Assembly: GCA_903902915.1 (NCBI GenBank)
Contig: CAIUWR010000049.1
Location: forward strand, 84,471 to 108,470
Length of the DNA: 24,000 nt
Direction: 5' to 3'
Origin: an uncultured Hyphomicrobiales bacterium
Lineage (GTDB): Bacteria; Pseudomonadota; Alphaproteobacteria; Rhizobiales; Beijerinckiaceae
Shown here: piece after piece, positions 1 through 8,796 of the stretch
How positions within the stretch are numbered: the stretch's first letter is position 1
Layout: every line of letters starts with the position of its first letter
The notes under the pieces: model-generated
What the model was told of the DNA's origin: nothing
The model's input: the letters and a program-made list of their open reading frames with translations, nothing else
The model's database searches: none
Program-made: the position numbers and the translations under genes

Positions 1-789
1 AACACGCTCGACGAACATCTCGACATGCTGATGGTCTGCCATCACCTCGATTCGTCGATCCCCGAGGATCTGGCTTTCGCCGAAAGCCGCATCCGCAAGG
101 AGACCATCGCCGCCGAAGACATCCTGCACGATCTGGGCGCGCTCTCCATGATGAGTTCGGACTCGCAGGCCATGGGCCGCGTGGGCGAGGTGATCATCCG
201 GACCTGGCAGACCGCCGACAAGATGAAACGCCAGCGCGGCCCCCTGCTAGAGGAGACCGGCGACAACGACAACGCCCGCGCCAAACGCTACATCGCCAAA
301 TATACGATCAACCCGGCCATCGCCCATGGCGTGTCGCGGCACATCGGCTCCATCGAGCCGGGCAAGCTGGCCGATCTCGTGCTGTGGACGCCCGCCTTCT
401 TCGGCGTGAAGCCCGATATCATCATCAAGGGCGGCGCCATCGCGGCCGCCGCCATGGGCGACCCCAACGCCTCGATCCCGACGCCCCAGCCGGTGCATTA
501 CCGGTCGATGTTCGGCGCCTATGGCGGCGCGGTGGCCTCGACCTGCCTCACCTTCGTCAGCGCGCTGGCGATGGACAGGGGGCTGGGGGCGAAGCTGCGC
601 GTCAACAAGCCCATGGTGGCCGTGGAGAACACGCGCGGCCAGATCAGCAAGAAAAGCATGATCCACAACGCCGCCACCCCGAAGATCGTGGTGGACCCCG
701 AGACCTATTCGGTGAGCGCCGACGGCGTGCTGCTGGTCTGCGAGCCCGCCGATGTGCTGCCCATGGCGCAAAGGTATTTCCTGTTCTAG
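1..789 (+). CDS. ureC: Urease alpha subunit, C-terminal part (5' end lies outside the window)
   Basis: Frame 1 is open from base 1 ([17 protein letters not shown]...). It contains typical UreC segments ([36 protein letters not shown]) and the canonical C-terminus [10 protein letters not shown] followed by TAG at 787-789. Confidence 0.95.
763..789. repeat. Left copy of a perfect 27-bp direct repeat (ATGGCGCAAAGGTATTTCCTGTTCTAG), equal to the last 8 codons plus stop of ureC
   Basis: The identical 27-mer was read at 2358-2384. This copy is in frame with ureC and completes it. It is about 44% G+C, lower than the flanking host DNA. Confidence 0.85.
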
Positions 790-1469
790 CCCGCGCCGCG
801 CGAGCGGTTGCAATAACTGTGGGTCAGTCTCGCATTTGACAGGTCGGTGCTTCCGCCCTGTGAATATGGGACGATGTGGTCCATCTCAGCATCATCTATG
901 TGCTCAATTTGCTGATGGCAGAGCCCGCACGTACGATCCTCGTCAAACCGCGCCTTTTTCTCTGAAAACGTATATAGCCGCCGCATCGCCACGTGTGGGC
1001 CAATTACATCATTTAACACGCTGTTCCATATCTCGAACCGGGTTTTAACCCGACTCTTGTCTGCCGTTCCTAGAGTGATTGCATCTGCGAACTCTCTACT
1101 CGTGGAACAAATATGAATAAACGCTTCGCGAATTGCGTCTTTCCGCTCTATGACGAGCCGCTTTTCAGCACGCGCAAACCAAAACATGATGACGTCGTAG
1201 ACCGCCTTGTTTATGGCTTTCTCCCAACTGCCTCCCACATGACCGGGCGAACCAGGCGAGTAACGACGGAAAGCCTTTTCGCCAAAAACTGTAAATGACA
1301 ATTCAATGGCTTTGTGAAAAACTTCCTTATATTTGTTTTCTCGCTCTGGTGAAATGGTGCGGTTTTCCTTCATATGATTATTTAAAAACGACCGCATCCC
1401 ATCATTATAGTTCAAATAGGTCGCCTCGTTGAATGCAAGAAATCGCAAAACTAATTCGACATCCTGCAT
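786..1469 (-). CDS. C-terminal fragment: helical middle region plus HNH endonuclease motif
   Basis: [45 protein letters not shown] is a classical HNH (His-Me finger) signature with a Cys pair. ELVLRFLAF-type middle region as in long DUF262 proteins. The stop codon (complement of 786-788) lies inside the left direct repeat and overlaps the ureC stop. Confidence 0.7.
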
Positions 1470-2357
1470 TCTAGCGACAGGGTTATTAACGCCAAGAATC
1501 GTCTGAAAGTTTTAGTCTTTAGCTAATTCATTCATCAATTGGTTATAGCTACCTCGAAAAATGCAGTTCCTTAATTCCTGATCGGACAAAGAGACGGAGC
1601 CCGTGTTAAGCCGCTCGAATATTTCAAATTTTACAACCGGATGAGAGTCTTTTGATATTTTTATCGTCGGAATTGTGAATTTGTTGAACGCGTTTTTTGT
1701 CGCCTCATCAAGTTCTGCATGACGCTTCCCATCCAGATGGGACAATATTTTTAGATTTTTCAATCGAAATGGTCGGTGTTTTACGTGTTCACCACGACTT
1801 TCCCGCTCCTCGTCTTTTTTTGAAAGCGGGAAAAATCCGTCTATAAACGCAAAGCACGTTGTTAATCGTTGCTGACCATCGATAACAACTTCCTTCCCTC
1901 CGTCTTCTTCAGCTGTATAAACAAGCGGAAGCGGCACATTTAGCAGAATAGACTCTACAAGCGTGCTGGCTTTTTTAGTATCCCAAACGTAGCCCCTCTG
2001 GAAGGCTGGTCTCGGGTCTATGTCCTTGTCTTCTTTGTACGCTCTGTAGAGGTCGATGATTCGCCGGTTAGAATTTGAGAAATTGATTGGTGTGAAATTA
2101 TCAAGCGCGAGCGGGCTCTGATCATCGTCCTCGGCCTCAATCGTAACCTCCGCCTCCTGAACATGAGCTTCAGGGGCTTCGTACTCTGCTTCTTGGTTTG
2201 CGGACATAATGAGAGCCCCTAACTTTACATAAGCTTAACAAATATGAACACCAATATTAAATCAAGCAGAAGTTGATCAAGCCTGCGGGCCTCGGTGGAA
2301 ACAAAGTCTGCCACTCCACGGTTCCCGGGGTGATGCAGCGGCTCTTGCGTTTCCCCA
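790..2357. mobile_element. Low-GC inserted cassette / genomic islet between the 27-bp direct repeats; single nuclease cargo gene, no integrase or transposase
   Basis: Sharp composition drop (hand-counted lines 30-43% G+C versus about 68% in the flanks). It is bounded by the perfect direct repeats and interrupts the ureC to ureE region. The only convincing coding capacity is the minus-strand DUF262/HNH reading frame. Confidence 0.6.
1512..2207 (-). CDS. DUF262 domain protein fragment (N-terminal ParB-like / GmrSD-N-like part)
   Basis: Contains the family hallmarks FQRGYVWDTKKASTLVESIL and VIDGQQRLTT (DGQQR motif). Starts at ATG 2205-2207 with AGGGG about 9 nt upstream on the minus strand. Ends at the in-frame TAA. 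Confidence 0.75.
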   Translation of the reverse strand: MSANQEAEYEAPEAHVQEAEVTIEAEDDDQSPLALDNFTPINFSNSNRRIIDLYRAYKEDKDIDPRPAFQRGYVWDTKKASTLVESILLNVPLPLVYTAEEDGGKEVVIDGQQRLTTCFAFIDGFFPLSKKDEERESRGEHVKHRPFRLKNLKILSHLDGKRHAELDEATKNAFNKFTIPTIKISKDSHPVVKFEIFERLNTGSVSLSDQELRNCIFRGSYNQLMNELAKD

Positions 2358-2384
2358 ATGGCGCAAAGGTATTTCCTGTTCTAG
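2358..2384. repeat. Right copy of the perfect 27-bp direct repeat (orphan duplicate of the ureC 3' end)
   Basis: Identical to 763-789. The sequence upstream of it is not ureC-like: the ureC frame hits TGA 9 codons upstream. It lies 26 nt upstream of the ABM gene start. Confidence 0.85.
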
Positions 2385-2410
2385 AAGAGGCTTCCGACCC
2401 CGGAGGCTTC

Positions 2411-2713
2411 ATGATCGTCGTCATCGCCCGCGCCAAGATCCGTCCCGAAAAACGGGATGACTTTCTTGCGGCGGCGGCGGCCTGCGTGGAGACGTCCCGC
2501 GCGGAGAGCGGCAATATCGCTTATGACGTCTATGAAAGCGCCACGGAGACGAACGCCTTCGTCGTTCTGGAGCGCTGGAAGAGCCATGAGGACAATCGCG
2601 CCCATCTCCAGAACGCCCATACGCAGGACTTCCTGCGCGCCATGGCGCAAAGCGTGGCCGAAATGCCCCGGATAGAGGCGATCACCCCCGCCAAGATCGA
2701 CATGCTCGCTTGA
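2411..2713 (+). CDS. Antibiotic-biosynthesis-monooxygenase (ABM / Dabb-fold) family protein, 100 aa
   Basis: [22 protein letters not shown]...[26 protein letters not shown] is a typical ABM-domain pattern. GGAGG at 2402-2406 precedes ATG 2411. The longer track ORF from 2273 runs through the repeat and island edge and is not credible. Confidence 0.8.
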
Positions 2714-2724
2714 GAGAGACCCCC

Positions 2725-3291
2725 ATGATCCGCGCCAATTTCATCAGCGCCCGAGGCGCATGGCAGGCCAAGCCCGCCGACACCGTCGTGCTCGATTTCG
2801 AAGCGCGCCACCGCCGCCGCGTCGCCATGACCGGCGTGCGCGGCCTCGAATTCCTGCTCGATCTGCCCGAAGCCGTGGTGCTGCGCCATGGCGACGCCTT
2901 GGTGCTGGAGGACGGGCGCCTCGTGGAAGTGGTCGCCGCGCCCGAGCCGCTGGCCGAGATCCGCATCGGCGAGCCGCGCGATCTCGCGCGCATGGCCTGG
3001 CATCTGGGCAACCGTCATCTGCCGGTGCAGATTCTCGCCAACCGAATCCGCATCCGCCGCGACCCGGTGATCGAGGACATGGCCCGCAAGCTGGGCGGCA
3101 AGATCGCCCTCATCGAAGGCCCCTTCGAGCCCGAGGGCGGCGCCTATGCGCCCGAACCCGAGCCTGCGCCGGAACCCGCACATGTGCATGGCCCGGGCTG
3201 TGGGCATGATCACCACGGGCATGATCACCACGCCCATGACGACCACGGCCACGACCACGCTGGCCATGGACACAAGCATTCTCATGACTGA
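2725..3291 (+). CDS. ureE: Urease accessory protein UreE (nickel metallochaperone) with His-rich tail
   Basis: [10 protein letters not shown] motif. C-terminal [39 protein letters not shown] at 2725 chosen; TTG at 2710 is an alternative. Sits in the ure cluster. Confidence 0.9.
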
Positions 3292-4009
3292 TCTGGCCCT
3301 CGCGCAGCGGCCTTCGCTTGTGGATACGCAAACCAGCGCAGGTTCCGCCCTGCCGCTGCACATCTGGCTATCGCCCGCTTTTCCGGTGGGCGCCTTCGCC
3401 TATAGCCATGGGCTGGAAGCCGCCGTCGATCATGGCGACATCACGAACGCCGCCACGCTGCAAGCCTGGCTCGACGATCTCGTGCGCTTCGGCTCGTTGC
3501 GCAGCGACGCCCTGCTGGTCGCCTGCGCCTGGCGCGCGGCTGTCGCAGGCGACATGGCTGGGGTCATCGAGATCAATGATCTGGCCCTTGCCCTGGCCCC
3601 TTCCAAAGAACGGCATCTGGAGACGGCGGCGCAGGGAAACGCCTTCATCGCCGCCGCGCAGGCCTCCTGGCCTTGCGATCTGCTTGCCGAACTGGCGGGG
3701 GCGGCGGACACCATCGCCTATCCCGTCGCGGTGGCCGTGGCGGCGGCGGCCCATGCTGTGCCGCTGGCCGCCCTTCTCGACGCATATCTGGTCGCCTTCG
3801 CGGGCAATCTCGTCTCCGCCGCCGTGCGCCTTGGCCCGGTGGGGCAGACCGACGGGCAGAAGATCATCGCGCGGCTTGTGCCCGCCCTGCGCGAGGCCGC
3901 ACAGTTCGCGGCAACTGGAACGCTGGACGATCTGGGCTCCGCAGCCCTGCGCTCCGACATCGCCGCCATGCGGCATGAAACGCAATATTCAAGGCTGTTC
4001 CGCTCATGA
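3284..4009 (+). CDS. ureF: Urease accessory protein UreF
   Basis: [23 protein letters not shown]... is typical of UreF. ATG 3284 overlaps the ureE stop (3289-3291) by 8 nt, indicating translational coupling. Confidence 0.9.
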
Positions 4010-4440
4010 CCCTCGGCTTGTGCCTCTTCGTCTTCGCCGTGCTGATGACGGTGGCGGGCCTTTACTTGTCCTGGGCGCGGGGCGGGCATTGGCCCGTTTC
4101 CAGCGAGATGGCGCTGGCTGCGGCAGTGGTCGGCGACCCGAAACTGCAACGCATGCCCTCGCCCCAACGCCTGCGGCTGATCGCCCTCGCCCACGCGCTG
4201 GGCGCGCTCAGCGTGCTGGCTCTGGGCTTCGACCTGCCCGGCCCGCTGCAACTGATCGCGACCTATTTGGGCGCGGGCTTTTGCGCTGTCTTCGGCCTGC
4301 GCGGCGTGCTCGGCTTCCTGCCGTTCTGGCGCAAGCATTTCACGGCGGAACCGTTCAACACCATTGACCGGATCATCTATTCGCCCTGCTATGTGCTGAT
4401 CGCCGAGGTCTATTTCTCGCTCATCTCCGACAGGTTCTGA
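4006..4440 (+). CDS. Small integral membrane protein, DUF3995-like, embedded between ureF and ureG
   Basis: About four hydrophobic segments. N-terminal LSWARGGHW resembles the DUF3995 WAxGG-W pattern (from memory, not searched). ATGA overlap with the ureF stop, and 3 nt before the ureG start. Confidence 0.65.
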   Translation: MTLGLCLFVFAVLMTVAGLYLSWARGGHWPVSSEMALAAAVVGDPKLQRMPSPQRLRLIALAHALGALSVLALGFDLPGPLQLIATYLGAGFCAVFGLRGVLGFLPFWRKHFTAEPFNTIDRIIYSPCYVLIAEVYFSLISDRF

Positions 4441-4443
4441 ACC

Positions 4444-5066
<623 letters not shown>

Positions 5067-5070
<4 letters not shown>

Positions 5071-5573
5071 CCCGGCAACAGGTCTTGCAGCCGCAGCAGG
5101 GCGATGCGGCTGATCTCGTCCAGCGCAGCGGCGAATTCCTGATCGCGGTCGTGAGCGATGCGACGCGCGAAGGCGCCCATGATCTCATCCTTGCTGCGGC
5201 CCTTCACCGCCATGATGAAGGGGAAACCAAAACGCGCCTTGTAGGCGTCGTTCAGTTCCGTGAAGCGCGCCCGTTCCTCGTCGGTGAGCTGGTCGAGGCC
5301 GGCGGACGCTTGCTCTTTCGTCGATTCCGCCGTCAGGCGTCCGGCGCGGGCGAGGCGCCCCGCGAGATCGGGATGGGCCATGATGAGCGCGAGCTTCTGC
5401 ACATCATCGCCCGCCATCATGGCTCGGGCCATCAGGGCATGCAGACCGCGCGCCGTCTCACAGCTGGAATCGAGCCCGGCGTCAAAGGCGGATTCCGCGA
5501 CCCAGGGCGAATGTTCGAAAACCCCGCCAAAGCGGTCCACGAAGGCGGCGCGTGAAAGGTCGCGAAGGTTCAT
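5067..5573 (-). CDS. uraD: 2-oxo-4-hydroxy-4-carboxy-5-ureidoimidazoline (OHCU) decarboxylase
   Basis: [42 protein letters not shown] are OHCU decarboxylase hallmarks. Start taken at MNLRDL (ATG 5571-5573) rather than the longer track ORF. Its stop overlaps the ureG stop in a TTAA. Confidence 0.9.
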
Positions 5574-5620
5574 CGGAAAACCTGTTTGATAGGGGCGGCG
5601 ACAAGGTTGTAAGCTTCGGT

Positions 5621-5636
5621 CATGCTGTTTAGCATG
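5621..5636. promoter_or_regulatory. Perfect palindrome CATGCT-GTTT-AGCATG in the uraD/hiuH divergent intergenic region; candidate operator
   Basis: Read directly from the sequence. Located about midway in the 98-bp gap between the divergent starts at 5573 and 5672. Confidence 0.3.
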
Positions 5637-5671
5637 CGACTCGGTTTTCACTATCTTATCAATGGTGGCGC

Positions 5672-6073
5672 GTGAGCGAAACAAAGACGCTTTCCCCGGT
5701 CGGCGCCCCGGCGCAATCTGGCCGCCTGACCACGCATGTGCTCGACACGGCCTGCGGCAAGCCCGCGCAAGGGGTGGCCATCAGCCTCTTCGCCGTTGAG
5801 GCCTCCGGCGCCCGGCGCTTGCTCAAAAGCGCGCGGACCAATGGAGACGGGCGCTGCGACGCACCTCTTCTGAGCGGCGCGGAGATGGTTGTGGGCGCCT
5901 ATGAACTCGTCTTCGAGGTCGCGGCCTATTTCCGCGCGGCGGGAGTCGCCCTGAGCGATCCGCCATTTCTGGACGTTGTTCCGATTCAATTCGGGATAGC
6001 CGAAGGCGGCGCGCATTATCATGTGCCGCTGCTCATCTCCCCCTATGGGTATTCGACCTATCGGGGAAGTTAA
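5672..6073 (+). CDS. hiuH: 5-hydroxyisourate hydrolase (transthyretin-like)
   Basis: [17 protein letters not shown], the [20 protein letters not shown]-terminus with the YRGS signature. GTG start at 5672; the exact start is uncertain. Confidence 0.9.
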
Positions 6074-6098
6074 TAAAGAACACTCAAGGGGAACAAAC

Positions 6099-7532
6099 AT
6101 GTCGGACGAGACGCACCCAGTAGATGAAATGCTGCCGCCTGCTCGCCTTGGCGCGCTGGGCTTGCAGCATGTTTTGGTGATGTATGCGGGCGCCATCGCC
6201 GTGCCGCTGATCATTTCCGGCGCGCTTGGGCTCAATCCCGAGCAGCGCGCGGTGCTGATCAACGCGGATCTTCTGGCCTGCGGCCTCGCCACACTGGTGC
6301 AGGCGCTGGGCTTCTGGGGCGTGGGCATCCGCCTCCCCGTCATGATGGGCGTCACCTTCGCCTCCGTCTCGCCCATGATGGGCATGATCGCAGCCGCCAA
6401 GAGCGGCGGCAACTTTCAGGCGATTCCCACCCTGCTGACCATCTATGGCTCGGTCATCGCGGCCGGCCTCTTCGCCTTCCTCGTGGCCCCACTGGTGGGC
6501 CGGGTGCTGCGCTTCTTCCCGCCGGTGGTCACGGGCACGATCATCACGGTGATCGGCCTGTCGCTGATGCGCATTGGCGTCGGCTGGGCGGAAGGCCCGC
6601 TGACGGTGGTGCAGATGGTGGATGGGGCGGTGAAGGTCATTCCCAATCCCAACCGCGACGCGCTCGACGGCCTCGCCATGGCGCTGTTCGTGCTGCTGGT
6701 GATCCTTGGAATCACCAAATACGCCAAGGGCTTCATCTCCAATGTGGCGGTTCTGGTGGGCATCATCGCGGGCGCGGTCGTGGCCAGCCTGGTGGGCGCC
6801 GAGTCGCCCAATGTGGCCATGAGCTTCGCCGATGTGGCCAAGGCCCCCTGGTTCGGCGTGGTCATGCCCCTGCAATTCGGCATGCCCACCTTCGAGGTGA
6901 CGCCCATCATCATCATGTGCATCGTGATGCTGGTGGTGATGATCGAATCGACCGGCATGTTCCTGGCGCTGGGAGAGATGACCGGCCGCAAGGTGGGTCC
7001 GGAGGATCTGACCCGGGGCCTGCGGGCTGACGGCGTCGGCACCATCATCGGCGGCGTGTTCAACACCTTCCCCTACACCTCCTTCTCCCAGAACGTGGGC
7101 CTCGTCGGCGTCACCGGCGTGCGTTCGCGCTATGTGGCGGCGGCGGGCGGCGTGATCCTGATCGTTCTGGGCTTCGTGCCCAAGCTCGCCGCCCTTGTGG
7201 GCGCGGTGCCCGTGCAGGTGCTGGGCGGCGCGGGTCTGGTGATGTTCGGCATGGTCACGGCCACCGGCATCCGCATTCTGGGCGGGGTGGACTTCAAGAC
7301 GAAGCGCCACAACCTGTTCATCGTGGCGATTGCGGTGGGCTTCGGCCTCATCCCGCTCATCGCGCCGAACTTCTTCAAGAACTTCCCCAGCGAACTGAAG
7401 CTGTTGCTGGAGTCAGGCATCATCCTTGCCTCCATCGTGGCCGTCGTGCTCAACGCTTTCTTCAACGGTCTGGGCTCCCGGACCGAGGCTGAAGCGCAGA
7501 TCGCGCAAGCGTCCGCGCAGGCCGACATCTGA
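6099..7532 (+). CDS. NCS2-family nucleobase:cation symporter (xanthine/uric acid permease type)
   Basis: GLQHVLVMYAGAIAVPLII, ESTGMFLALGEMTG, FPYTSFSQNVGLVGVTGVRSRYV are NCS2 signatures, with many TM segments. ATG 6099 is preceded by AAGGGGA. Substrate is inferred from the urate context. Confidence 0.9.
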   Translation: MSDETHPVDEMLPPARLGALGLQHVLVMYAGAIAVPLIISGALGLNPEQRAVLINADLLACGLATLVQALGFWGVGIRLPVMMGVTFASVSPMMGMIAAAKSGGNFQAIPTLLTIYGSVIAAGLFAFLVAPLVGRVLRFFPPVVTGTIITVIGLSLMRIGVGWAEGPLTVVQMVDGAVKVIPNPNRDALDGLAMALFVLLVILGITKYAKGFISNVAVLVGIIAGAVVASLVGAESPNVAMSFADVAKAPWFGVVMPLQFGMPTFEVTPIIIMCIVMLVVMIESTGMFLALGEMTGRKVGPEDLTRGLRADGVGTIIGGVFNTFPYTSFSQNVGLVGVTGVRSRYVAAAGGVILIVLGFVPKLAALVGAVPVQVLGGAGLVMFGMVTATGIRILGGVDFKTKRHNLFIVAIAVGFGLIPLIAPNFFKNFPSELKLLLESGIILASIVAVVLNAFFNGLGSRTEAEAQIAQASAQADI

Positions 7533-7543
7533 CCCAACTTTCA

Positions 7544-7568
7544 GCCAGCGGGCGCCATGCCCGCTGGC
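7544..7568 (+). other. Perfect 10-bp stem / 5-nt loop hairpin (GCCAGCGGGC-GCCAT-GCCCGCTGGC) between the permease and puuD
   Basis: Read directly from the sequence. It starts 12 nt after the permease stop and ends 19 nt before the puuD start. No U-tract follows, so it is not a canonical intrinsic terminator. Confidence 0.35.
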
Positions 7569-7587
7569 CTTGCATCCGGAGAGTCCC

Positions 7588-8796
7588 GTGGATTGGCGAA
7601 TTCTGTTTACCGAATGGGCGGATTTTCTGATCCGTTGGGTCCATGTGATCGCGGGCGTCTGCTGGATCGGCTCCTCGTTCTATTTCGTCCATCTGGATCT
7701 GAGCCTGCGCAAGCGCGACGGGCTGCCGCAGGGCGTGGGCGGCGAAGCCTGGCAGGTGCATGGCGGCGGCTTCTACCACATGATGAAATATACGGTCGCG
7801 CCGTCCCATCTGCCGCAGGATCTGACCTGGTTCAAATGGGAGGCCTACTGGACCTTCATCTCCGGTTTCTCCCTGCTGTGCTGGCACTATTTCGCCCATG
7901 CCGAACTTTATCTGATCGACCGGACGGTGATGGATCTGACGCCTGTCCAGGCGGTGTCCATCGCCATCGCCGTCTTGGCGCTGGGCTGGGTGATCTATGA
8001 TTTCCTGTGCCGCTCGAAGCTGGGCGACAGCGATCTGGCGCTCGGCGTGGTGGGCTTCGCCTTTCTCGTCGCCATCGCCTTCGGCCTGACGCGGGTCTTC
8101 AGCGGACGCGGCGCCTTCATCCTTCTGGGAGCCCTGATCGGCACGATCATGGTGGCCAATGTGGCGATGAACATCATGCCCAACCAAAAGAAAACCATCG
8201 CGGCCCTGATCAAGGGCGAGGCGCCGAACCCGGCCTATGGCAAGACGGCGAAGAGCCGTTCCCTGCACAACAACTACCTGACCCTGCCGGTCATCTTCCT
8301 GATGGTCTCCAACCACTATCCGCTGGCTTTCGGCTCGAAGTGGAACTGGCTGATCGTGACCCTGGTCATGGTGATCGGGGCCGTGGTGCGGCACTTCTTC
8401 AATTCCGAACACGCCCGCAAGGGCTCGCCCTGGTGGACCTGGGCGGTGGCGGCCGCCTGTTTCATCGCCATCATCGCGCTGTCGGGCGCCTCGCGCGAGG
8501 GCGGTGACGCGGCCCTCGCTCCGGCGCCCAAGGTCAAGTTCGCGCAGGTGGAGGAGATCGTCGTCTCGCGCTGCTCCATGTGCCACATGGCCGAGCCCGT
8601 CTGGGATGGCGTCAATGCGCCCCCCAAGGGCGTGATGCTCGACACGCCCGAGCGCATCCGCCTTCATGCGGAGCAGATCTATCTACAGGCGGTGATGACC
8701 CGCTCCATGCCGCCCGGCGGCAATCTGACCGAATTGAGCGAAGAGGACCGCAAGGTGCTGGCCGCCTGGGTGCAAGGCGGCGCGCAGGCGGACTGA
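7588..8796 (+). CDS. puuD: PuuD-type integral-membrane urate oxidase with C-terminal cytochrome c domain
   Basis: N-terminal [25 protein letters not shown] membrane domain and multiple TM segments. C-terminal CSMCH heme c binding motif. GTG 7588 is preceded by GGAGAG. Lies in the urate gene context. Confidence 0.8.

What the first reader, a model, noticed from the sequence alone, without database searches (positions are those of the whole stretch)
763..2384. A 1.6-kb low-GC cassette inserted exactly at the ureC stop codon, bracketed by perfect 27-bp direct repeats, with no recombinase
The 27-mer ATGGCGCAAAGGTATTTCCTGTTCTAG occurs at 763-789, where it encodes the conserved UreC terminus MAQRYFLF plus stop. 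It occurs again at 2358-2384 as an orphan copy whose upstream sequence is not ureC-like. Between the copies G+C drops from about 68% to about 30-43% (hand-counted lines). This is the footprint of site-specific integration into the 3' end of a gene (attL/attR-like duplication that restores the target). However, the element is only about 1.57 kb and carries a single nuclease gene, with no integrase, transposase or relaxase. Either it is mobilised in trans, or it is the stripped remnant of a larger island, or it entered by a nuclease-driven homing-like route. The repeat itself is unusually AT-rich and uses codons that are rare for this genome (CAA, AGG, TAT). Minimal defence-type islets targeting a urease structural gene are not something I can place in a described family.
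Basis: partly seen in the sequence, partly recalled or inferred. Interest (0 to 1): 0.75.

Follow-up and report, generated by a model that had tools for sequence, protein, structure and literature searches.

The report
Dead defence nuclease wedged behind ureC
A 1.6-kb low-GC insert sits exactly at the stop codon of the urease gene ureC, bracketed by a perfect 27-bp repeat, and carries one now-inactivated anti-phage-type nuclease gene; relatives of the same nuclease sit at this same spot in several other bacterial lineages, while the closest relatives have a clean empty site.

Summary
The 27-mer is exact at 763-789 and 2358-2384. The 1,568 bp between the copies have 46.5% G+C against 66.5% ± 1.9% elsewhere.

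The insert carries one minus-strand reading frame (2207..786). It encodes a ParB-DUF262 + NsnA-like DNA-binding + HNH nuclease, resembling GmrSD/Menshen-NsnA/PD-T4-2. An in-frame TAA at 1512-1514 breaks it. Its stop codon shares the tetranucleotide CTAG with the ureC stop. No recombinase lies in the window or in any related locus.

The predicted empty site exists in three sets of relatives, including one with only about 6% nucleotide divergence in the flanks.

It is not a one-off integration scar. The same nuclease clade (61-90% identity) sits between ureC and ureE in at least four other lineages: convergent in three, co-directional in one. Copies are intact, decayed or absent. A 'Beijerinckia' MAG shares the junction and has a decayed copy of the orphan repeat.

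Best reading (about 0.45): an old cassette tied to the urease cluster, gained and lost by host recombination across the ureC-end repeat, and now decaying. Homing-like or trans-recombinase targeting is not excluded.

The parts
1..789 (+). 3' part of ureC (urease alpha subunit), stop TAG at 787-789
   Evidence: ORF 25..789 matches Amidohydro_1. It is 83-90% identical to UreC of relatives.
763..789 (+). Left copy of the 27-bp direct repeat: the functional ureC end (MAQRYFLF*)
   Evidence: Exact match. Extends to 29/30 from position 760.
786..2207 (-). Nuclease pseudogene: one 473-codon frame with ParB-DUF262, NsnA-like DNA-binding middle and C-terminal HNH. Its stop TAG (786-788) overlaps the ureC stop in CTAG.
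   Evidence: Translation. Pfam GmrSD_N 3.9e-32 and HNH 1.8e-11. PADLOC NsnA 2.5e-90 and PD-T4-2_A 2.7e-47. Full-length homologues of 444-491 aa end at the same place.
1512..1514 (-). Premature in-frame stop TAA (codon 232); the 90%-identical homologue P0001 has Lys here
   Evidence: The same stop is present in contigs L001-L003, which are 100% identical to the window.
1557..2015 (-). ParB-DUF262 (GmrSD_N) domain region, residues 65-217, with FQRGYVW, DGQQR and FERLN motifs
   Evidence: Pfam envelope. Invariant columns D110-R114 and F197-N201.
795..929 (-). HNH nuclease motif region, residues 427-471 (CxxC, DH, N, H, C all present)
   Evidence: Pfam HNH. Invariant C427, C430, D443, H444, N458, H463, C466. 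Foldseek matches only HNH domains.
2208..2357 (.). Non-coding right end of the insert, upstream of the nuclease start (presumed nuclease promoter/leader)
   Evidence: No ORF with a family match. Partly alignable with the equivalent stretch of L011. No sigma-70 consensus hit here.
2358..2384 (+). Right, orphan copy of the 27-bp repeat (displaced ureC end)
   Evidence: Exact match. The homologous but decayed copy in L011 matches at 21/30, p<0.0005.
2385..2410 (+). Native ureC-ABM spacer (AAGAGGCTTCCGACCCCGGAGGCTTC), which follows the ureC stop directly at empty sites
   Evidence: Empty-site junctions in L111, L096 and L102.
2411..2713 (+). ABM-family monooxygenase gene, a native member of this clade's urease cluster
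   Evidence: Pfam ABM 9.6e-21. Present next to ureC at empty sites.
2725..5070 (+). ureE (2725-3291), ureF (3236-4009), DUF3995 (4006-4440), ureG (4444-5070)
   Evidence: Pfam. Gene calls on identical contig L002. Same synteny in L096-L107.

Best explanation
What it is. The insertion is 1,595 bp: 1,568 bp of unique sequence plus a 27-bp duplicate of the ureC end. It carries one single-gene defence nuclease, with a ParB-DUF262 NTPase/sensor, an NsnA-like DNA-binding domain and an HNH nuclease. This is the domain logic of the type IV restriction enzymes GmrSD and SspE. The gene is convergent with ureC. In this genome it is a pseudogene (Lys232 to TAA).

How it behaves. This nuclease lineage has long been tied to the ureC|ureE junction of urease clusters in a group of alphaproteobacteria. 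The insertion seen here, duplicated ureC end included, goes back at least to the common ancestor with the 'Beijerinckia' MAG (L011).

Inferred steps. (1) It arose by host recombination without any element-encoded recombinase. The likeliest route is one homologous anchor in the conserved ureC gene plus an illegitimate join on the other side (homology-facilitated illegitimate recombination, or 'C-terminal displacement'). That route pushes the resident ureC end downstream as an orphan. (2) It is then inherited with the urease cluster, or exchanged by homologous recombination among relatives. (3) It is lost cleanly by recombination between the two repeat copies, which gives the exact empty sites seen in the nearest relatives. 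(4) Recombination also keeps or re-makes the repeat identity in this lineage. (5) The nuclease acts against foreign, probably modified, DNA and not in its own movement. Within this clade it is being inactivated repeatedly.

Shown: the insertion, the repeat, the empty sites, the domain make-up, the pseudogene state, recurrence at the same junction, the junction shared with L011, and the absence of recombinases.

Inferred: the recombination route, the defence function, and the reason for decay.
For: Anatomy.

Exact empty sites in relatives with the same synteny: L111 (ABM 97% identical, flanks about 6% diverged with no divergence gradient at the junction); L096-L101 and L102-L107.

Same junction in other lineages. 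Stop-stop overlap occurs in L005, L011/L090 and L094. L007 has a 5-nt gap.

Shared right junction. The L011 orphan matches the window 30-mer at 21/30 (p<0.0005). Both orphans start CCCAAT where ureC has CCCAT.

The nuclease tree agrees coarsely with the urease-protein groupings. The window, P0001, L011 and P0002 group at 100% bootstrap, and their hosts (window clade plus L007) are nearer to each other than to L094/L108.

Long purifying selection was followed by recent decay. Window versus L011 identity at codon positions 1/2/3 is 86/91/37%. There are four different inactivating routes: the window, L011, L090 and L005.

No recombinase in the window or in any related locus. No close relative on plasmids, phages or viral contigs, and no 27-mer in viral contigs.

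One-sided-homology insertion that leaves orphaned 3' ends is documented for T6SS/Rhs loci (PMC5361080).
Against: (1) The repeat is perfect here but 30% decayed in L011, although synonymous sites of the two nuclease copies are saturated. A neutral relic of the common ancestor should not be intact. If the window copy is ancestral, all 9 differences fall on the L011 branch (about p=0.004 under equal rates). This needs gene conversion, refreshment by recombination with empty alleles, selection on the orphan, or a re-insertion.

(2) Nuclease GC3 is 0.24-0.50 in hosts whose genes have GC3 0.45-0.91. That is odd for a long-term resident, although low G+C is a trait of the whole family, also outside urease loci.

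(3) L108 has the gene co-directional with ureC and ureE. Members not linked to urease (P0004, P0006) group with the urease-linked P0003 and P0008 (71% bootstrap), and monophyly of all urease-linked copies has 0% support. Some further mobility or site preference therefore exists.

(4) Pairwise nuclease identity among the window, L007, L094 and L108 is a flat 60-66%, although L094 and L108 hosts are closer to each other.

(5) No co-transferred ureC tract was detected.
Confidence: 0.45

Rival explanations
1. Homing-like spread driven by the nuclease itself. The HNH enzyme, or an intact relative acting in trans, cuts the conserved ureC end or the ureC-ureE junction of empty alleles. Repair from a filled allele then copies the gene in. 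Invasion, fixation, decay and precise loss would follow in a cycle, as for free-standing homing endonuclease genes.
For: The same nuclease clade sits at one junction next to a very conserved sequence in at least 5 lineages, in both orientations. Filled, decayed and empty states coexist among close relatives. There is no recombinase. Low G+C is seen everywhere. Urease-linked copies are not monophyletic. Free-standing HNH homing genes between conserved genes are known in phages (PMC2790892).
Against: The family architecture (DUF262 sensor + nuclease) is that of modification-dependent, not sequence-specific, defence enzymes. More than 4,000 homologues occur across all phyla, e.g. beside a type I R-M system. 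In the window the right junction rebuilds 30 nt of ureC end plus the native spacer, so a target centred on the empty junction would not be destroyed by insertion. No co-conversion gradient is seen in the flanks. The L011 copy stayed under purifying selection long after its repeat decayed. Homing between bacterial chromosomes would also need DNA transfer.
Confidence: 0.15
2. Site-specific recombination by a host or trans-acting recombinase (Xer-like or a distant integrase). The 27-30-mer would act as the att site and the cassette would excise as a 1,595-bp circle, making it a recombinase-less mobilisable module in the manner of IMEX or pdif modules.
For: Perfect 27-bp direct repeats lie at both ends. 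Exact empty sites exist. The same duplicated segment is seen in L011. A circle would keep the gene whole, because its stop lies inside the repeat. A young or re-made repeat in the window would follow naturally.
Against: Read directly, the 27-mer has no dyad symmetry or two-arm structure of a Xer or tyrosine-recombinase core. The only palindrome is around CTAG (I25). L094, L007 and L108 have no repeat. The 27-mer is absent from viral contigs. Every contig with the window's exact ABM protein that reaches far enough upstream to tell is filled, so there is no sign of excision polymorphism.
Confidence: 0.13
3. Stripped remnant of a larger integrase-bearing island that integrated into the ureC 3' end (attL/attR) and then lost everything except the nuclease.
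For: Direct repeats that restore the 3' end of the target gene are the classic footprint of such islands.
Against: All the independent filled lineages carry only this one gene between ureC and ABM/ureE. The nuclease stop lies inside the repeat and the gene is complete at both ends. No integrase fragment appears in 790-2357.
Confidence: 0.04
4. The nuclease-like protein has been recruited to a role linked with urease (for example metal handling or regulation), which would explain its repeated presence inside urease clusters.
For: In L108 the gene is co-directional, 31 nt after ureC and 10 nt before ureE, which looks like an operon member. The association recurs across lineages.
Against: In four of five lineages it is convergent with ureC. 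It is absent from the nearest relatives, whose urease clusters are otherwise intact. It is inactivated four separate times while the ure genes stay intact. All nuclease and NTPase motifs of a defence enzyme are retained. No literature link was found.
Confidence: 0.05

Closest known systems
GmrSD / BrxU / SspE-type single-protein type IV restriction enzymes (DUF262 + DUF1524)
   Same: N-terminal ParB-like DUF262 domain with QRxxxW, DGxQR and FxxxN motifs, fused to a C-terminal His-Me-finger nuclease in one polypeptide. Stand-alone gene with low G+C and a patchy distribution (PMC12065111).
   Different: The C-terminal nuclease is a canonical HNH (PF01844) with a CxxC zinc knuckle, not DUF1524. 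The middle matches the NsnA 'ParBDB' domain. There is no sequence match to any solved structure.
Menshen NsnA (sensor of NsnABC) and PD-T4-2 protein A
   Same: Best PADLOC matches. NsnA scores 2.5e-90 over residues 20-402, nearly the whole profile, and PD-T4-2_A scores 2.7e-47. The ParB-DUF262 + ParBDB core is as described in PMC12065111.
   Different: There are no NsnB (ABC ATPase/DUF3696) or NsnC neighbours and no HEPN partner. An HNH nuclease is fused to the sensor instead.
Defence hotspots between conserved core genes (P. aeruginosa core defence hotspots, PMC10250203; E. coli defence islands, PMC10121019)
   Same: A defence gene occupies a fixed slot between conserved genes, varies between presence and absence among relatives, and often has no mobility gene of its own.
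   Different: The slot here is inside an operon (the urease cluster). It holds one and the same nuclease lineage across several lineages, not a changing menu of systems. It is bounded by a duplicated gene end.
Homology-facilitated illegitimate recombination / 'C-terminal displacement' leaving orphan 3' ends (T6SS, Rhs, CDI loci; PMC5361080, PMC3240628)
   Same: A conserved gene serves as the homology anchor. Incoming DNA brings a new gene end plus cargo, and the old end is displaced downstream as an orphan. No recombinase is needed.
   Different: Only 27-30 nt are displaced here. The cargo is a defence nuclease on the opposite strand. The mechanism is inferred, not shown, and no co-transferred ureC tract was seen.
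Free-standing HNH homing endonuclease genes of phages (e.g. T4 mobE; PMC2790892, PMC2988022)
   Same: An HNH nuclease gene sits alone between conserved genes, in either orientation. Distribution is patchy, copies decay, and there is no recombinase.
   Different: It is chromosomal in bacteria, the protein is of the defence-sensor type, the target site is not destroyed by insertion, and no co-conversion was seen. Cleavage specificity is untested.

Membership tests
GmrSD-type type IV restriction enzyme | N-terminal DUF262 (ParB-like NTPase) domain with DGxQR, QRxxxW and FxxxN motifs | tested here: met
   PF03235 at 3.9e-32, residues 65-217. FQRGYVW, DGQQR and FERLN are invariant in the alignment.
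GmrSD-type type IV restriction enzyme | C-terminal DUF1524 His-Me nuclease domain | tested here: not met
   No DUF1524 hit. The C-terminus matches PF01844 HNH at 1.8e-11.
GmrSD-type type IV restriction enzyme | Cleavage depends on modified DNA (e.g. glucosyl-hmC, phosphorothioate) | not testable with these tools
   Needs biochemistry. In addition, the gene here is a pseudogene.
Menshen (NsnABC) | NsnA: ParB-DUF262 + ParBDB DNA-binding domain | tested here: met
   PADLOC NsnA at 2.5e-90, profile positions 21-383 of 385.
Menshen (NsnABC) | Adjacent NsnB (ABC ATPase + DUF3696) and NsnC effector genes | tested here: not met
   The neighbours are ureC and ABM/ureE in the window and in every urease-linked locus.
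Integrase-mediated island in the 3' end of a gene (attL/attR) | Direct repeats that duplicate and restore the target gene end, with an exact empty site in relatives | tested here: met
   27/27 repeat. Empty sites in L111, L096 and L102.
Integrase-mediated island in the 3' end of a gene (attL/attR) | Tyrosine or serine recombinase encoded in the element | tested here: not met
   There is only one gene between the repeats. No recombinase in the window or in L007, L011, L094 or L108.
Free-standing homing endonuclease gene | Nuclease gene alone between conserved genes, with filled and empty alleles among relatives | tested here: met
Free-standing homing endonuclease gene | Sequence-specific cleavage of the empty allele near the insertion point | not testable with these tools
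   Needs enzyme assays on L111- or L096-type junction DNA.
Free-standing homing endonuclease gene | Co-conversion of flanking markers, or disruption of the target by the insertion | tested here: not met
   Window versus L111 flank divergence is uniform, about 6%. Filled alleles do not share a closer ureC end. The right junction re-creates 30 nt of ureC end plus the spacer.
Xer-dependent modules (IMEX / pdif) | Flanking ~28-bp sites with two inverted 11-bp arms around a 6-bp centre | tested here: not met
   Read directly, the 27-mer has no such dyad. The only palindrome found is CCTGTTCTAGA/TCTAGAAGAGG, centred on CTAG at the right copy's junction with the spacer (2375-2390, I25).
Integron cassette | attC site (an imperfect palindrome of about 60-140 bp) and a nearby integron integrase/attI | tested here: not met
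   No long inverted repeat at either end. No integrase in the window.

The most novel reading that the evidence does not exclude
A lineage of GmrSD/NsnA-like HNH nucleases behaves as a recombinase-less, locus-specific mobile cassette. It repeatedly colonises the stop codon of ureC (the ureC|ureE junction) in different alphaproteobacterial lineages. It does so either by its own cleavage (a chromosomal free-standing homing element derived from a defence enzyme) or by using the conserved ureC end as a portable att or homology site. It then passes through an invade, decay and precise-loss cycle.
Probability: 0.2. Interest if true: 0.8.

Novelty: new variant of a known kind. Interest (0 to 1): 0.5.

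Why it matters
If the cassette is an ordinary defence islet, its value is as a clean natural example. One gene, a 27-bp target duplication, exact empty sites at about 6% flank divergence, and four independent inactivations together show how defence genes enter, persist in and leave a conserved operon without any mobility gene.

If the tie to ureC is active targeting, it would be a new way for a defence-type nuclease to move between bacterial chromosomes. It would also offer a handle on what DUF262-HNH enzymes recognise, because the 27-mer and the empty junction would be a ready-made candidate substrate.

The repeated recent inactivation also offers a test of the idea that type IV enzymes are discarded when a host acquires a conflicting DNA modification.

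Tried and rejected
- Sequencing error as the cause of the internal stop: rejected. The contigs from other metagenome assemblies that span the site (L001-L003) are 100% identical to the window, stop included.
- Foreign origin of the 27-mer, inferred from rare codons: rejected. The same AGG/TAT/CAA codons occur in ureC ends at empty sites.
- Larger island or neighbouring recombinase: none in 24 kb or in the related loci.
- Plasmid, phage or viral vector: only relatives below 40% identity on plasmids and phages, one 42% hit in viral contigs, and no 27-mer in viral contigs.
- Shared cassette termini or flanking repeats in copies not linked to urease (L009, L010, L092, L109, L110) and in L108: none.
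- Orphan repeat in L094 and L007: not detectable (p>0.1 against their own ureC end).
- Co-conversion or mosaic tract next to the insertion: none.
- Structure route: the AlphaFold model is poor in the N-terminal half (pLDDT 66, pTM 0.47). Foldseek against the PDB gave only HNH domains and a weak DndI hit. The PDB sequence search gave nothing.
- Host identity: the UreG homologue search returned only unnamed environmental sequences. The only label is 'uncultured Beijerinckia sp.' for L011.
- The metagenome scan added only L089 and L090.
- The first bootstrap script and the first shuffle script timed out and were rerun.
Full report
**Observation**

The 27-mer ATGGCGCAAAGGTATTTCCTGTTCTAG is present exactly twice, at 763-789 and 2358-2384. 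No further match appears with up to three mismatches, and none is expected by chance. Identity extends to 29 of 30 bases (CCC/CCA before ATG). The left copy is the end of ureC (…[11 protein letters not shown] at 787-789). The right copy has no ureC-like sequence upstream of it.

The 1,568 bp between the copies have 46.5% G+C. All other windows of that size in the 24 kb average 66.5% (sd 1.9, minimum 61.5). That is about ten standard deviations lower. The lowest 200-nt window is 36%.

**Content of the insert**

On the minus strand a single frame runs from 2207 to 786 (473 codons). A TAA at 1512-1514 interrupts it, so an ORF finder reports two pieces of 231 and 227 aa.

The conceptual protein has three parts:
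- A GmrSD_N/DUF262 ParB-like domain (PF03235, 3.9e-32).
- A middle part that, together with the DUF262 domain, matches almost the whole PADLOC NsnA profile (2.5e-90; PD-T4-2_A 2.7e-47).
- A canonical HNH domain at the C-terminus (PF01844, 1.8e-11).

NsnA is the proposed DNA sensor of the Menshen system and consists of ParB-DUF262 plus a 'ParBDB' DNA-binding domain (PMC12065111). Here there is no NsnB or NsnC. A nuclease is fused to the sensor, which is the logic of GmrSD and SspE.

All catalytic and nucleotide-binding residues are intact. Homologues of 444-491 aa end at the same residue, so the gene is complete at its 3' end. Its stop codon (786-788, minus strand) lies inside the left repeat and shares CTAG with the ureC stop.

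The homologue P0001 (90% identity) has Lys where the window has the stop. Four contigs from other metagenome assemblies are 100% identical to the window, and the three that span the site carry the same stop.

No integrase, transposase or relaxase is encoded anywhere in the window. Downstream lie ABM, ureE, ureF, a DUF3995 gene, ureG, urate catabolism genes and housekeeping genes.

**Empty sites**

Homologues of the adjacent ABM protein led to relatives with the same gene order (urtDE-ureD-ureAB-ureC-ABM-ureE-ureF-DUF3995-ureG) but no nuclease.
- L111: …CCCATGGCGCAAAGATATTTCATGTTCTAA AGAGGAGCCTCCGACCCCGGAGGCTCC ATG.
- L096: …ATGGCGCAGAGGTATTTCTTGTTCTAG AAAGAGGCCTCAATCCGGAGGCTTC ATG.
- L102: …ATGGCGCAGAGGTACTTCCTGTTTTAA GGGAGGGCCTCGTCCGGAGGCTCC ATG.

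L111 is very close to the window. ABM is 97% identical, the flanks are about 6% diverged, and third-position identity is 85-89%. The divergence is even right up to the junction.

The AGG, TAT and CAA codons are present at these empty sites. The repeat is therefore native ureC sequence, not imported sequence.

**The same nuclease at the same place elsewhere**

The nuclease has more than 4,000 homologues across bacteria and archaea. Its nearest relatives, however, are repeatedly found behind ureC:

| Locus | Nuclease identity to window | Arrangement | State |
|---|---|---|---|
| L005/L006 (P0001) | 90% | ureC end …TTCATGTTCTAG overlaps the nuclease stop, as in the window | 5' part replaced by unrelated DNA |
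| L011, L090 ('uncultured Beijerinckia sp.' MAG and a sister contig) | 81% | Same overlap; L011 continues with ABM-ureE-ureF…ureG | Broken |
| L007/L008 (P0002) | 65% | Convergent, 5 nt after the ureC stop, directly before ureE, no ABM | Intact |
| L094/L095 (P0003) | 62% | Convergent, 4-nt stop overlap, followed by a distant ABM | Intact |
| L108 (P0008) | 61% | Between ureC and ureE but co-directional, 31 nt after ureC and 10 nt before ureE | Intact |

Other members of the clade lie elsewhere: P0005 beside a type I R-M system, and P0004, P0006, Novosphingobium and a Sphingomonadales MAG in other contexts. Among 80 loci from species-representative genomes, only L011 is linked to urease genes.

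**Age and relationships**

Urease proteins place the window, L096, L102 and L011 in one clade (UreG 91-95%), with L011 outermost. L007 is apart (UreG 75-76%). L094 and L108 are nearer to each other than to the rest.

The nuclease tree gives (window, P0001, L011, P0002) 100% bootstrap. P0003-P0026 form a second clade (81%). Within it, P0003 and P0008 (urease-linked) group with P0004, P0006 (not linked) and P0012 (context not examined) at 71%. Monophyly of all urease-linked copies has 0% support. So urease linkage is either ancestral with later escapes, or was gained two to three times.

L011 shares the window's right junction. Directly before its ABM spacer lies CCAATAGCGGGAAGAGCCGTCCTGTTCTAA. 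This matches the window 30-mer at 21/30 (p<0.0005 by shuffling) and its own ureC end at only 17/30. Both orphans begin CCCAAT where ureC has CCCAT. L094 and L007 have no detectable orphan, and L108 has no flanking repeats.

Window and L011 nuclease copies are 86/91/37% identical at codon positions 1/2/3. That means long purifying selection and saturated synonymous sites. The insertion with its duplication therefore predates the window-L011 split.

**Decay**

Every copy in the window clade is inactivated, each in a different way:
- Window: Lys232 to TAA.
- L011: a +1 frameshift and a Gln to stop change in the HNH domain.
- L090: a Glu to stop change and a -1 frameshift.
- L005: a 5' truncation.

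L011 and L090 are 99.1% identical, yet four of their 14 differences are disabling. Copies in L007, L094 and L108 are intact. This points to recent relaxed selection, or selection against the enzyme, within one clade. Conflict with a newly acquired DNA modification is a known fate of type IV enzymes. That explanation is my inference and was not tested.

**What does not fit a simple story**

1. The repeat is perfect in the window but 30% decayed in L011, although both derive from one event. If the window copy is ancestral, all nine differences fell on one branch (about p=0.004). The window repeat must have been homogenised, for example by gene conversion or by recombination of the orphan with the true ureC end of empty alleles. 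Otherwise it was selected or re-made.

2. Nuclease GC3 is 0.24-0.50 in hosts with GC3 of 0.45-0.91. This is a family-wide trait also seen outside urease loci, so it does not date the insertion. It is nonetheless unexpected for a long-term resident.

3. The co-directional copy in L108, and the relatives nested in the tree that are not linked to urease, show additional movement.

4. Nuclease identities among the four main lineages are a flat 60-66%.

**Mechanism**

I rank highest a host-recombination model. The cassette entered by recombination anchored in conserved ureC, with an illegitimate join on the other side. This displaced the last 27-30 nt of the resident ureC downstream, as proposed for orphaned 3' ends at T6SS/Rhs loci (PMC5361080, PMC3240628). 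It has since travelled with the urease cluster, or by homologous recombination among relatives. Recombination between the two repeat copies removes it cleanly, which would explain empty sites in L111, L096 and L102 while copies with decayed repeats stay locked in. The nuclease is a defence enzyme and plays no part in the movement.

The rivals are ranked as follows:
- Homing by the nuclease itself. The patchy filled/decayed/empty pattern at a conserved sequence fits. The protein type, the intact target at the right junction and the lack of co-conversion do not.
- A trans-acting site-specific recombinase using the 27-mer. The perfect repeat and exact empty sites fit. The lack of a recombinase-core structure, the lack of repeats in three lineages, and the lack of any sign of excision do not.
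- A stripped integrase island. No lineage has more than the one gene.
- A urease-linked function. It is absent or dead in lineages whose urease clusters are intact.

**Comparison with known systems and novelty**

The protein works like a GmrSD/SspE-type fused sensor-nuclease but fails the DUF1524 criterion. It has an NsnA core but lacks NsnB and NsnC. It is an uncharacterised yet very common single-gene variant.

The locus resembles a defence hotspot between core genes (PMC10250203, PMC10121019). It differs in three ways: it lies inside an operon, it holds one nuclease lineage across several lineages, and a duplicated gene end bounds it. No paper in the library links DUF262 proteins with urease clusters.

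I class the finding as a new variant of a known kind. Interest is 0.5. The homing-like or att-like reading (probability about 0.2) would be of high interest if shown.

Noticed in passing
window 2640-2652: A third exact copy of CCATGGCGCAAAG (the first 13 nt of the extended ureC-end repeat) lies inside the ABM gene (…AMAQS…). L111's ABM has it too. It may be chance or a possible short-homology substrate.
   Followed up: no
L011 2096-4108 (-): A 670-aa ORF with no Pfam or PADLOC match sits between ureF and ureG, where the window has the DUF3995 gene. This looks like a second variable slot in this urease cluster. Its G+C is host-like.
   Followed up: partly
L005 1-52 / L006 1-29: The 90%-identical nuclease copy loses homology upstream of codon ~76 and continues into unrelated DNA (CAGCCACTCAAGACACTACATGTAGGGCTACCTGAGTCAACGGGATAAGCCTCG). 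The junction is the same in two assemblies. It may be the end of another inserted element.
   Followed up: partly
L092 about 3417-3426 (also L089): CTAGAACAGG, the reverse complement of the ureC end CCTGTTCTAG, lies 14 nt after the stop of the nuclease copy that sits beside a type I R-M system. It may be a relic of a former ureC junction or chance (rough p 0.01-0.02).
   Followed up: no
L011 vs L090 (nuclease region): The two copies are 99.1% identical, yet 4 of their 14 differences are disabling lesions, two different ones in each. This is more than neutral decay would give and hints at selection for inactivation.
   Followed up: partly
L108 3264-3304: A perfect 17-nt inverted repeat with a 7-nt loop lies inside the HNH coding region of the intact, co-directional nuclease copy. 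It is not present in the window copy.
   Followed up: no
L111 from about 810 onward (window about 2915): Homology to the window stops inside ureE, and the gene call is UreE_N + SlmA-like_C. This is either a rearrangement or a chimeric contig.
   Followed up: no
window 5067-8796: A urate-catabolism block (OHCU decarboxylase, HIUase, xanthine/uracil permease, PuuD-type urate oxidase) follows ureG directly. Relatives L096 and L102 instead have a dehydrogenase and an acyl-CoA dehydrogenase at that place.
   Followed up: no
L109 140-200: Two direct copies of GATTGGAAATTCGGTA lie upstream of the nuclease homologue P0004, which is not linked to urease.
   Followed up: no
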